Part shown: positions 6,854-9,063 of the stretch, in pieces | Layout of the letters: each line of letters opens with the position of its first letter | How positions within the stretch are numbered: position 1 is the first letter of the stretch | Origin: a virus | Taxonomy: Duplodnaviria; Heunggongvirae; Uroviricota; Caudoviricetes | Direction: 5' to 3' (one strand) | DNA: 9,063 bases | IMG/VR virus record: IMGVR_UViG_3300029121_000075 | The notes under the pieces: generated by a model | Told to the model about the DNA's origin: nothing | Seen by the model: the letters and a program-made list of their open reading frames with translations, nothing else | Databases searched by the model: none | Translations under genes and position numbers: made by a program

Positions 6854-8955
6854 TGCTGAATCAGGAAACCGCAAAGGCAGCACGAACCGATTCAGGTTAT
6901 ATCCTTCGCGCACCGAGACGAATGCGGGTTGCTGATGCCGTTGCTCAGTATATGCGGGTGCCCATGGGGGCAGGGAACTCAGTCCCGTGGGATCCGCTGG
7001 TGGCACCGTATGTTATTGAGCCGATGAACTGCCTGGCCTCGCGTGAATACGACGCAGTGATATTTGTTGGCCCGGCACGAACCGGCAAGACTATCGGCCT
7101 GATTGACGGCTGGGTGATTTACAACGTGATTTGCGATCCTGCTGATATGCTGATCATTCAGATGACGGAGGAAAAAGCCCGCGAACACTCCAAAAAACGA
7201 CTCGCCAGAACGTTTCGCGTCAGCCCGGAAGTGGTCAGTCGCCTGAGTCCGAACAAAAATGACAACAACGTTTATGACAGAACATTCCTTGCTGGTAACT
7301 ACCTGAAAATCGGCTGGCCGTCAGTCAATATCATGTCCTCATCAGATTATAAATGCGTCGCGCTGACGGATTATGACCGTTTTCCGGAAGATATTGATGG
7401 CGAGGGGGATGCTTTCTCTCTTGCCTCAAAACGTACCACCACATTTATGTCCAGCGGTATGACGCTGGTGGAGAGTTCCCCCGGCAGGGATGTGAAGGAT
7501 GTGAAATGGCGACGGACTTCACCGCATGAGGCTCCACCAACCACGGGGATCCTGTCGCTCTATAACCGTGGTGATCGCCGTCGCTGGTACTGGCCCTGTC
7601 CACACTGTGGTGAGTATTTTCAGCCCTGCGGCGATGTGGTTGCTGGTTTCCGTGATATTGCCGATCCCGTGCTGGCAAGTGAGGCGGCTTATATTCAGTG
7701 TCCTTCCTGTTCAGGACGGATTATGCCTGAACAAAAACGTGAGCTGAACGGACGTGGGGTCTGGTTGCGGGATGGTGAATCCATCAATGCGGATGGCAGT
7801 CGTTATGGTGATCCCCGACGCTCACGTATTGCGTCATTCTGGATGGAGGGTCCGGCAGCTGCTTACCAGACACTCTCGCAACTCGTTTACAAACTGCTTA
7901 CTGCAGAACAGGAATACGAGACAACCGGAAGTGAAGAAACACTCAAGACGGTTATCAATACCGACTGGGGATTACCTTATCTTCCCCGCGCCAGCATGGA
8001 GCAACGAAAAAGTGAACTGCTTGAGCAGCGGGCAGAGCCAGTTCCTTCCCGCAGTGTGCCGGATGGCGTTAATTTCCTTGTGGCGACAGTGGATGTGCAG
8101 GCGGGACGTCATCGCCGTTTTGTGGTTCAGGTAACGGGCTATGGCAGCCGTGGCGAACGCTGGATTATTGATCGTTACAACATCACGCAGTCATTGCGCG
8201 GTGACAGCGACGGGGAGAGCCAGCGAATTGATCCGGCCAGCTATCCGGAAGACTGGGATGTCCTGCTGACGGATGTTTTTCATAAAAGCTGGCCGCTGGC
8301 CTCCGATCCTTCTCAACAAATGCGACTGATGGCAATGGCGGTGGACTCCGGCGGTGAAGACGGGGTCACTGATAATGCCTATAAATTCTGGCGTCGTTGC
8401 CGTCGTGATGGCCTTGGTAAACGTATTTACCTGTTTAAGGGCGACAGCATCCGGCGCGCAAAACTGATCACCCGTACATTCCCTGATAACACCGGACGAA
8501 CGGGCCGACGGGCGCAGGCCGCAGGTGATGTGCCGCTCTGGCTTCTTCAGACGGATGCACTGAAAGACCGGGTGAATAACGCGTTATGGCGTGACTCGCT
8601 AGGTCCCGGCTATGTGCATTTCCCTGACTGGCTGGGGAGCTGGTTTTACGACGAACTGACGTATGAAGAGCGGAGCAGTGACGGGAAATGGAGTAAGCCG
8701 GGTCGCGGTGCCAACGAAGCTTTTGACCTGATGGTGTATGCCGAGGCTCTGGTCATTCTGCATGGATACGAAAAGATCCGCTGGCCGGATGCACCGGAGT
8801 GGGCGAGCCGGGAAACCTGGCTGGAGTGTGTCCAGGACAGTACCGAACCGTCATCCTCACCGGAACCGGTATCCACGCCTGTTAAAAAACAAAAACGGAA
8901 GAAAACAGTAACTGACGATGTTAACCCCTGGCTGACTTCCGGAGGATGGTTATGA
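6853..8955 (+). CDS. Terminase large subunit, lambda gpA family (ATPase/endonuclease)
   Basis: 700 aa. P-loop GPARTGKT. CPHCGE zinc-motif block (WYWPCPHCGEYFQ) as in lambda gpA. VDVQAGRHRRFVVQVTGYGSRGERWIID parallels gpA GIDSQLDRYEMRVWGWGPGEESWLID. Translationally coupled to terS, with strong SD AGGAGG. Confidence 0.93.
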   Translation: MLNQETAKAARTDSGYILRAPRRMRVADAVAQYMRVPMGAGNSVPWDPLVAPYVIEPMNCLASREYDAVIFVGPARTGKTIGLIDGWVIYNVICDPADMLIIQMTEEKAREHSKKRLARTFRVSPEVVSRLSPNKNDNNVYDRTFLAGNYLKIGWPSVNIMSSSDYKCVALTDYDRFPEDIDGEGDAFSLASKRTTTFMSSGMTLVESSPGRDVKDVKWRRTSPHEAPPTTGILSLYNRGDRRRWYWPCPHCGEYFQPCGDVVAGFRDIADPVLASEAAYIQCPSCSGRIMPEQKRELNGRGVWLRDGESINADGSRYGDPRRSRIASFWMEGPAAAYQTLSQLVYKLLTAEQEYETTGSEETLKTVINTDWGLPYLPRASMEQRKSELLEQRAEPVPSRSVPDGVNFLVATVDVQAGRHRRFVVQVTGYGSRGERWIIDRYNITQSLRGDSDGESQRIDPASYPEDWDVLLTDVFHKSWPLASDPSQQMRLMAMAVDSGGEDGVTDNAYKFWRRCRRDGLGKRIYLFKGDSIRRAKLITRTFPDNTGRTGRRAQAAGDVPLWLLQTDALKDRVNNALWRDSLGPGYVHFPDWLGSWFYDELTYEERSSDGKWSKPGRGANEAFDLMVYAEALVILHGYEKIRWPDAPEWASRETWLECVQDSTEPSSSPEPVSTPVKKQKRKKTVTDDVNPWLTSGGWL

Positions 8956-9008
8956 ACCAGAATGATATCGAAGCCATGATTCAGCGTTATATGGAAGCTG
9001 AAATGTAA
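8952..9008 (+). pseudogene. 18-codon ORF remnant after terL, probable truncated 5' end of the next head-morphogenesis gene
   Basis: ATG overlaps the terL stop (ATGA) and is preceded by SD GGAGGA at 8941-8946, so a real gene start is likely. The frame (MNQNDIEAMIQRYMEAEM) ends at a TAA that lies inside the inverted-repeat arm. Confidence 0.3.
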
Positions 9009-9063
9009 CCGGCTCATTTAAACCGTCTGGTCTGTTTCCTCCGGCTCTACAAAAATAATGTCC
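9005..9063. repeat. Right arm of the exact 59-bp inverted repeat (partner 19-77); runs to the window edge
   Basis: GTAACCGGCTCATTTAAACCGTCTGGTCTGTTTCCTCCGGCTCTACAAAAATAATGTCC is the exact reverse complement of 19-77. Confidence 0.95.

What the first reader, a model, noticed from the sequence alone, without database searches (positions are those of the whole stretch)
8952..9063. Packaging/head operon is cut off 18 codons into the gene after terL
The ORF at 8952 has a strong SD (GGAGGA) and an ATGA overlap with terL, typical of the gene following the large terminase in lambda-like phages. It stops after 18 codons at a TAA supplied by the inverted-repeat arm, and no portal or capsid gene follows in the window. 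The prophage therefore appears structurally truncated or rearranged at this point while keeping intact terminase and lysis genes.
Basis: partly seen in the sequence, partly recalled or inferred. Interest (0 to 1): 0.55.

Follow-up and report, generated by a model that had tools for sequence, protein, structure and literature searches.

The report
Insertion sequence splits phage adaptor gene
The 18-codon stub after the large terminase gene is the start of a conserved 70-codon phage head-tail adaptor gene that a common E. coli insertion sequence (ISCro1 type, IS66 family) has split; the window simply ends 59 bases into that element, so this is an ordinary event, not evidence that the head genes are missing.

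Summary
An 18-codon ORF (8952-9008) has a GGAGGA Shine-Dalgarno sequence and an ATGA overlap with terL, and it ends at a TAA inside an inverted-repeat arm. The explanation is mundane. Similarity to the intact 70-aa head-tail adaptor gene (phrog_118) stops at base 9004. From 9005 the sequence is the canonical left terminus (GTAACCGGCTCA...) of a 2,699-bp ISCro1-type IS66-family element, 59/59 identical to full-length copies. The TAA is the last three bases of the element's terminal GTAA. The window stops 59 nt into the IS. The same IS terminus, inverted, fills window 1-77, 4 nt upstream of the Q antiterminator start codon. The window is therefore an 8.9-kb unique segment bracketed by two IS copies, most likely a short-read contig broken at a repeat. 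The uninterrupted terL-adaptor-portal stretch is in 1,897 of 5,426 complete E. coli genomes; this junction is in none. "Truncated prophage" is therefore not shown. In a simple insertion, the rest of the adaptor gene and the portal and capsid genes would resume about 2.7 kb further on, as in strains with ISCro1 in neighbouring genes. I could not find the source genome, so an IS-mediated deletion beyond the element is not excluded. Low interest; already known.

The parts
1..77 (-). Left terminus (IS bases 1-77, read on the minus strand) of an ISCro1-type IS66-family element, including the first 8 codons of its tnpA (window 24->1). The body of the element lies to the left of the window.
   Evidence: 77/77 identical to the full-length 2,699-bp element of L001. 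BLAST also matches L034 100%. It is one arm of the 62-nt inverted repeat.
78..85 (.). Predicted 8-bp target site (GTTGATGC) of the left IS copy. It includes the Q start codon, and the native SD (GGAG in ...TTTGTGGAGTAA|GTTGATG) has been displaced to the far side of the IS.
   Evidence: The native upstream sequence from L025 is compared with the window. The 8-bp duplication is inferred from three other copies; the far end is outside the window.
82..465 (+). Q antiterminator gene (quuD type, 127 aa), intact, but with the IS terminus 4 nt upstream of its ATG.
   Evidence: PF06530 Phage_antitermQ, 3.5e-53. Window 75/78-2400 is 100% identical to many E. coli chromosomes, where it is annotated quuD.
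6359..6853 (+). Small terminase subunit gene (DUF1441 type, 164 aa).
   Evidence: PF07278, 2.7e-41. It precedes terL in all relatives.
6853..8955 (+). Large terminase gene terL (700 aa), intact.
   Evidence: GpA_ATPase 8.6e-72 and GpA_nuclease 6.1e-85. The exact protein is listed in 221 collection blocks.
8941..8946 (+). Shine-Dalgarno GGAGGA of the adaptor gene.
   Evidence: Read directly from the sequence. It is identical in the intact gene of phage cdtI.
8952..9004 (+). 5' remnant of the 70-codon head-tail adaptor gene (17 codons plus 2 nt).
   Evidence: Identical to the first 53 nt of the intact gene in L004 (window 8300-9005 is 100% identical to that record, hit H2). The intact protein MNQNDIEAMIQRYMEAEMAVLDGKSV...RLARF matches phrog_118 'head-tail adaptor' at 1e-36.
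8952..9008 (+). The chimeric 18-codon ORF. Codon 18 (ATG) is AT from the gene plus the G of the IS; the stop TAA is IS bases 2-4.
8997..9004 (.). Predicted 8-bp target site GCTGAAAT of the right IS copy, expected to be repeated at the far end of the element.
   Evidence: Inferred. Three independent full-length copies each have an 8-bp duplication, and 8 bp is reported for IS66 (PMC6778807).
9005..9063 (+). Left terminus (IS bases 1-59) of a second ISCro1-type element in the same orientation as the late operon. Its tnpA ATG is at 9058. The window ends here.
   Evidence: 59/59 identical to the L001 element. All phage and prophage matches stop at 9005. tnpA lies under the match in hits H1, H44 and others.

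Best explanation
An ISCro1-type insertion sequence (IS66 family, 2,699 bp, encoding TnpA, TnpB and a DDE transposase) transposed into the small head-tail adaptor gene that follows terL in a lambdoid E. coli prophage of the Qin/mEp460/cdtI late-gene type. It entered after base 9004 at target GCTGAAAT, oriented with the late operon. The element's first base, G, completes codon 18, and its next three bases, TAA, stop translation. That leaves an 18-residue stub still translationally coupled to terL. A second copy of the same element, inverted, sits 4 nt upstream of the Q antiterminator start codon at the other end of the window. The window is the 8.9-kb unique segment between the two copies and ends a few dozen bases into each, which is what a short-read contig broken at a repeated element looks like. 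Shown: the identity and exact boundary of the IS termini, the identity of the interrupted gene, and the fact that the truncated form is not conserved. Inferred: that both copies are full-length; that the window ends are contig breaks; that the remainder of the adaptor gene and the portal and capsid genes resume about 2.7 kb downstream; and that the prophage is non-inducible or non-productive, because the adaptor is lost, the Q ribosome-binding site is displaced, and the IS has polar effects.
For: (1) Matches to 17 phage records and about 1,900 E. coli genomes all end at window 9005. Alignment with the intact gene gives gaaat|ggcggtg in phage cdtI against gaaat|GTAACCGGCTC in the window. (2) Window 9005-9063 and the reverse complement of 1-77 are 59/59 and 77/77 identical to a full-length element in strain 24AR0142. 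That element encodes HTH_Tnp_1 TnpA, TnpB_IS66 (4.7e-40) and DDE_Tnp_IS66 (8.1e-104), and RefSeq annotates it as ISCro1 family. (3) Three independent full-length copies all begin GTAACCGGCTCA and end CGAG[C/T]CGCTTAC, each with its own 8-bp duplication, which fixes the boundary at 9005. (4) The intact gene is 70 codons, matches phrog_118 head-tail adaptor at 1e-36, and lies between terL and the portal gene in every relative examined. (5) The uninterrupted stretch is in 1,897 of 5,426 complete genomes; this junction is in none. (6) Where ISCro1 hit the portal gene (L001) or the 3' end of terL (L035), the downstream head genes (and in L035 the tail genes) continue directly after the element. (7) There is one long inverted repeat in the window, and its arms are the two IS termini.
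Against: The far ends of both IS copies lie outside the window. Their completeness, the 8-bp duplications and the continuation of the operon are therefore unverified for this genome. The source genome could not be found: the junction pattern gave no hits in genome or metagenome contigs, and the predicted far junctions are absent from complete E. coli genomes. The two arms differ in length (77 and 59 nt), which does not fit a single k-mer overlap, so reading the window ends as contig breaks is an inference. Several Qin-type relatives have already lost their head genes (L003, L013).
Confidence: 0.9

Rival explanations
1. IS-mediated rearrangement. The IS did insert here, but later homologous recombination between this copy and another ISCro1 copy deleted or inverted the DNA beyond it. 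The head genes would then truly be gone or moved, and the first reader's 'truncated prophage' would be right in effect.
For: Genomes with this element can carry many copies: up to 26 places per genome for the IS right-end query. The unique segment is bracketed by two copies. No complete genome carries the window's left and right halves contiguously, so this lineage is rearranged or mosaic. Qin-type relatives are often decayed, with the portal gene truncated and fused to a tail-fibre-assembly remnant in L003 and the portal gene followed directly by Lom in L013. Recombination between IS66 copies driving large deletions is documented, and it is recognised by mismatched 8-bp flanks (PMC6778807).
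Against: Nothing in the window requires it. The sequence up to the IS boundary is native on both inner sides. Other ISCro1 insertions in this module are simple insertions with matching duplications.
Confidence: 0.25
2. Assembly artefact. The terL-adaptor DNA and the IS terminus are not adjacent in the real genome, and the contig end is a mis-join or an arbitrary extension into a repeat.
For: Both ends of the window lie in a repeated element, and IS elements are notoriously hard to assemble from short reads (PMC6778807). The exact junction is unique among 5,426 complete genomes.
Against: The join falls exactly at the first base of the canonical IS terminus, and the same holds at the other end of the window. 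That is what transposition produces; a random mis-join would not land there. A unique junction is also expected for a recent insertion.
Confidence: 0.04
3. The 18-codon ORF is a bona fide conserved micro-ORF translationally coupled to terL.
For: It has a strong SD and an ATGA overlap.
Against: The SD, the overlap and the first 17 codons belong to a 70-codon gene found uninterrupted in 1,897 complete genomes and in all phage relatives. The 18-codon form occurs in none, and its stop codon comes from foreign DNA.
Confidence: 0.01

Closest known systems
ISCro1-type (IS66-family) insertions in the same prophage head-packaging module in other E. coli: in the portal gene of strain 24AR0142 (NZ_CP195362, L001) and at the 3' end of terL in NCCP 13717 (NZ_CP115984, L035) and NZ_LR883006
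   Same: The same 2,699-bp element (98.9-100% identical), the same orientation relative to the late operon, the same terS-terL-adaptor-portal module, and clean insertion with an 8-bp duplication.
   Different: The insertion site differs: here it is inside the 70-codon adaptor gene at GCTGAAAT, a site not seen in any of 5,426 complete genomes. Here the far end of the element is not visible.
ISCro1 between ylcG and quuD in ETEC strain E7476 (NZ_CP035817, L034)
   Same: The same element sits immediately upstream of the same Q gene; window 78-2400 is 100% identical to that record, 99.76% over 78-2541.
   Different: In E7476 the element is in the opposite orientation, with its right end facing Q, and about 38 bp further upstream (TSD CTTGTAAT). 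In the window the left end faces Q and lies 4 nt from the ATG.
Bacteriophage lambda gpW (head-tail joining protein; Pfam PF02831)
   Same: The same position (directly after the gpA-type large terminase and before the Phage_portal_2 portal gene), a similar size (68 against 70 aa), and translational coupling to terL. In lambda-type relatives the gene in this slot is PF02831 gpW.
   Different: There is no detectable sequence membership. The intact 70-aa protein has no PF02831 hit, only a sub-threshold DUF6148 hit (21 bits against a cut-off of 27). It belongs to phrog_118 and has no relative by sequence among solved structures.
IS-disrupted genes in E. coli K-12 cryptic lambdoid prophages (for example IS5 in nmpC of DLP12) - from my own background knowledge, not tested here
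   Same: An insertion sequence interrupts a gene of a resident lambdoid prophage, as part of normal prophage decay.
   Different: A different IS family and a different target gene.

Membership tests
IS66-family insertion sequence (ISCro1 type) | Terminal sequence identical to that of known full-length elements, beginning 5'-GTAA | tested here: met
   Window 9005-9063 is 59/59 identical, and the reverse complement of 1-77 is 77/77 identical, to the 2,699-bp element of L001. Three independent copies begin GTAACCGGCTCA.
IS66-family insertion sequence (ISCro1 type) | Three genes: tnpA (HTH accessory), tnpB (IS66 Orf2) and a DDE_Tnp_IS66 transposase | not testable with these tools
   The full-length reference copy has them (PF01527 8.5e-15, PF05717 4.7e-40, PF03050 8.1e-104). 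The window holds only the first 2 codons of tnpA at the right end and the first 8 at the left, and the source genome could not be retrieved.
IS66-family insertion sequence (ISCro1 type) | Imperfect terminal inverted repeats | tested here: inconclusive
   In the reference element the two ends align as GTAACCGGCTCA... and GTAAGCGGCTCG.... Only left ends are present in the window.
IS66-family insertion sequence (ISCro1 type) | 8-bp target-site duplication | not testable with these tools
   Three other copies have one (CGTAAAAA, CTTGTAAT, TGTTAAAA), and it is reported for IS66 (PMC6778807). For the window copies the far ends lie outside the window. The predicted duplications are GCTGAAAT and GTTGATGC.
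Phage head-tail adaptor, phrog_118 (the interrupted gene) | Sequence match of the full-length protein to the family profile | tested here: met
   The intact 70-aa orthologue (L004 9653-9865) shares its first 18 residues with the window ORF and scores 1e-36 over 70 of 70 residues against phrog_118.
Phage head-tail adaptor, phrog_118 (the interrupted gene) | Position between the large terminase and portal genes | tested here: met
   terL, then the 70-aa gene, then the portal gene, in every relative with an intact module.
Lambda gpW family (Pfam PF02831) | Match to the PF02831 profile above the gathering threshold | tested here: not met
   There is no PF02831 hit at E<=0.01, only DUF6148 at 21 bits, below its cut-off of 27. 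It is a positional analogue only.
Conserved micro-ORF / leader peptide | The short ORF, with its stop codon, is conserved in related genomes | tested here: not met
   None of 5,426 complete genomes has the junction, and 1,897 have the uninterrupted 70-codon gene.

The most novel reading that the evidence does not exclude
The two inverted ISCro1 copies and the 8.9 kb between them (Q antiterminator, OmpC/Lc-type porin, lysis cassette, cold-shock and Gns morons, terS, terL) could act as a composite transposon or an IS-bounded invertible segment. That would move or flip a phage late-gene/porin module as a unit. In that case the adaptor-gene break would be the edge of a mobile unit, not a simple gene knock-out.
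Probability: 0.05. Interest if true: 0.3.

Novelty: already known. Interest (0 to 1): 0.07.

Why it matters
It matters mainly as a correction. The apparent truncation of the head operon comes from an insertion sequence plus the end of the sequence window, so it should not be counted as a structural deletion or as a new micro-ORF. Biologically it is one more case of prophage inactivation by IS elements. One copy knocks out an essential head-completion gene. A second displaces the ribosome-binding site of the late-gene antiterminator Q. Together they would be expected to lock an otherwise well-preserved lysis/terminase module in the chromosome. The repeated, independent ISCro1 hits in this same module in other strains are a minor point of interest for anyone studying prophage domestication.

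Tried and rejected
1. Tracing the source genome to see what follows the IS. All attempts failed.
- A degenerate pattern covering the window junction and the predicted far junction found nothing in genome contigs or metagenome contigs. Caveat: it did not cover the right-end variant CGAGTCGCTTAC, which I saw later in L034 and L035.
- BLAST of the two synthetic predicted far junctions against complete E. coli genomes found no spanning match.
- Exact look-ups of the chimeric IS-Q ORF, with M or V as first residue, were not on record.
- Look-ups of TerL, Q and the holin returned only long contigs with other contexts.
- All eight other window proteins checked are on at least 1,000 contigs each, so none is a rare handle.

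2. Micro-ORF reading: rejected.

3. The relevant repeat is the 62-nt pair formed by the IS termini.

4. Membership of the adaptor in the lambda gpW Pfam family: not met. No relative by sequence among solved structures.

5. Using the arm lengths (77 and 59 nt) or variation between IS copies to infer the assembler's k-mer: uninformative. The ISCro1 variants are identical over their first 367 nt.

6. Han et al. 2001 (PMC95320), the original IS66-family characterisation, is not held in the library.

Full report
**Observation.**
- GGAGGA lies at 8941-8946, and the ATG at 8952 overlaps the TGA of the 700-codon ORF 6853-8955 as ATGA.
- That 700-codon ORF is a GpA-type large terminase: ATPase 8.6e-72, nuclease 6.1e-85.
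- The short ORF reads MNQNDIEAMIQRYMEAEM and stops at TAA 9006-9008.
- Only 55 bases of window remain after the stop.

**Where the homology stops.** I searched window 8300-9063 against 5,426 complete E. coli genomes and against 50,697 phage records.
- About 1,900 genomes and 17 phages, including cdtI, mEp460, phi458 and Ayreon, match at 98-100%. Every match ends at window 9005.
- In those records terL is followed by a 213-bp gene annotated as hypothetical protein, DUF6148 family protein, head-tail adaptor, Ad1 adaptor or putative gpW. The portal gene comes next.
- The cdtI gene translates to a 70-residue protein whose first 18 residues match the window ORF apart from one T/M polymorphism.
- The orthologue in strain 20220828076 is identical to the window over those 18 residues.
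- The intact protein matches phrog_118, 'head-tail adaptor', at 1e-36 over its whole length.
- It does not match the lambda gpW Pfam family and gives only a sub-threshold DUF6148 hit. It is therefore a positional analogue of gpW, not a demonstrable family member.

**What starts at 9005.** The last bases of the window match DNA lying just upstream of 'IS66-like element accessory protein TnpA' in thousands of E. coli records.
- In strain 24AR0142 the same element interrupts the portal gene. It runs from GTAACCGGCTCA to CGAGCCGCTTAC, is 2,699 bp long, and is flanked by the 8-bp duplication CGTAAAAA.
- It encodes an HTH TnpA, an IS66 Orf2-type TnpB and a DDE_Tnp_IS66 transposase. RefSeq names it ISCro1 family.
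- Window 9005-9063 is 59/59 identical to its first 59 bases.
- Two further independent full-length copies, in E7476 and NCCP 13717, have the same first and last bases and their own 8-bp duplications, CTTGTAAT and TGTTAAAA. The boundary at 9005 is therefore firm.
- The intact gene reads gaaat|ggcggtg and the window reads gaaat|GTAACCGGCTC. Codon 18 (ATG) is thus a hybrid of AT from the gene and G from the element. The TAA stop is bases 2-4 of the element.
- An 8-bp duplication is the reported property of IS66 (PMC6778807). The predicted target here is GCTGAAAT (8997-9004).

**The other end of the window.** BLAST of the window against the fetched loci showed that window 1-77, read on the minus strand, is the same IS left terminus, 77/77 identical.
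- The repeat finder reports one long inverted repeat in the window, 19-80 with 9002-9063.
- This left copy ends 4 nt upstream of the ATG (82) of an intact Q antiterminator gene: PF06530, 3.5e-53, quuD type.
- Comparison with the native sequence ...TTTGTGGAGTAA|GTTGATG shows that the insertion separates Q from its GGAG ribosome-binding site.
- The window is therefore 8,927 bp of unique DNA (78-9004) bracketed by two inward-facing left ends of the same element.
- An arbitrary slice of a finished genome would be very unlikely to begin and end within 80 nt of IS termini. I infer that the window is a contig, or a piece delimited by contig ends, broken at a collapsed repeat. That is the usual fate of IS elements in short-read assemblies (noted in PMC6778807).
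- This is an inference. The unequal arm lengths (77 and 59 nt) do not match a single k-mer overlap.

**Is the truncated form conserved, and what normally follows?**
- The uninterrupted stretch from the terL end through the adaptor gene to the portal start is present in 1,897 of 5,426 complete genomes.
- The window's junction is present in none.
- The window's exact TerL sequence is listed in 221 collection blocks. In all nine places shown it is followed by the 70-aa gene and a 502-aa portal gene. In eight of the nine a ClpP-protease/capsid fusion, a decoration protein and tail genes follow. In L013 the portal gene is followed by Ail/Lom instead.
- Where ISCro1 has hit neighbouring positions of this module, the downstream genes resume directly after the element. 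This holds for the portal gene in 24AR0142 and for the terL 3' end in NCCP 13717 and LR883006.
- The default expectation is therefore that the remaining 52 codons of the adaptor gene and the head genes lie about 2.7 kb beyond 9005.

**What could not be settled.** I could not find the source genome or a sibling.
- The junction pattern gave no hits in the species-representative genomes or the metagenome contigs.
- Synthetic far-junction queries found no spanning match in complete genomes.
- Exact look-ups of chimeric or rare proteins did not reach it.
- An IS-mediated deletion or inversion beyond the element therefore remains possible; I put it at about one in four.
- Points in its favour: high ISCro1 copy numbers in some strains, and the decayed state of several Qin-type relatives, such as a portal gene truncated and fused to a tail-fibre-assembly remnant in strain H2.
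- A further point in its favour is that the window is a mosaic found contiguous in no complete genome. Bases 75-2744 match the DLP12/lambda type and 2311-9005 match the Qin/mEp460 type, with the crossover in the shared holin-ydfR stretch.

**Mechanism and consequence.**
- Shown: an IS66-family element is inserted in the adaptor gene and another abuts the Q start codon.
- Inferred from established phage biology: in lambda the small protein in this slot (gpW) is needed to complete DNA-filled heads so that tails can join, so losing 52 of the adaptor's 70 residues should abolish infectious particle formation.
- Also inferred: a 2.7-kb insertion is likely to be polar on the portal and capsid genes, and displacing the Q ribosome-binding site should reduce late-gene antitermination altogether.
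- The terminase and lysis genes look intact, but they are probably poorly expressed and cannot yield viable phage.
- The 18-residue peptide is most likely a by-product with no function.

**Verdict.** Its conclusion that the operon is cut off and the prophage truncated does not follow from the window. The feature is an ordinary, already well-known kind of event: an IS insertion into a prophage gene, seen at the edge of a repeat-bounded sequence. Interest is low.

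Noticed in passing
window 1-85: A second copy of the same ISCro1-type left terminus, inverted, ends 4 nt upstream of the Q antiterminator ATG (82). It separates Q from its native GGAG ribosome-binding site. This junction is also absent from all 5,426 complete E. coli genomes.
   Followed up: yes
window 1-9063 (both ends): The window begins 77 nt and ends 59 nt inside IS termini, so its limits seem to be set by the repeat. It is probably a whole short-read contig. The unequal arm lengths are unexplained.
   Followed up: partly
window 2311-2744: There is a mosaic joint. 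Bases 75-2744 match a DLP12/lambda-type prophage (Q-porin-holin; L025, 99.5%) and 2311-9005 match the Qin/mEp460-type late region (L004, 99.75%). The crossover lies in the shared holin/ydfR stretch. No complete E. coli genome carries the two halves contiguously (best single-place coverage 78%).
   Followed up: partly
window 654-1736 (minus strand): A 360-aa OmpC/OmpD/Lc-type porin gene (Porin_1, 3.6e-152) sits between Q and the holin gene. This is the classic lambdoid 'lc/nmpC' moron position. The exact protein is very common in E. coli and Shigella.
   Followed up: partly
L001 6965-9663; L035 4412-7110; L034 15255-17953; NZ_LR883006 near 2880560: Independent ISCro1 insertions recur in the same prophage region in other strains: the portal gene, the terL 3' end (twice) and the ylcG-quuD spacer. 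The five target octamers seen or predicted (CGTAAAAA, TGTTAAAA, CTTGTAAT, GCTGAAAT, GCATCAAC) are mostly A/T-rich in their 3' half, which may reflect a target preference.
   Followed up: partly
window 4241-5806: A block of small morons lies between the lysis cassette and the terminase genes: cspI (cold-shock), ymcF/ynfQ-like, ynfN, the gnsB toxin-family gene and a 68-aa hypothetical. This is as in Qin-type prophages.
   Followed up: no
L003 16367-17764 (E. coli strain H2); L013 6889-10146: Close Qin-type relatives show other decay routes for the same module. In L003 the portal gene is truncated and fused to a tail-fibre-assembly remnant next to pinQ. In L013 the portal gene is followed directly by an Ail/Lom gene.
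   Followed up: no
phage record LC645450.1 (PPwrbA_EC3734) 44600-44667: The same IS left terminus (97% over 67 nt) occurs in a deposited 63-kb phage/prophage record, so ISCro1-type elements are also carried within sequences deposited as phage genomes.
   Followed up: no
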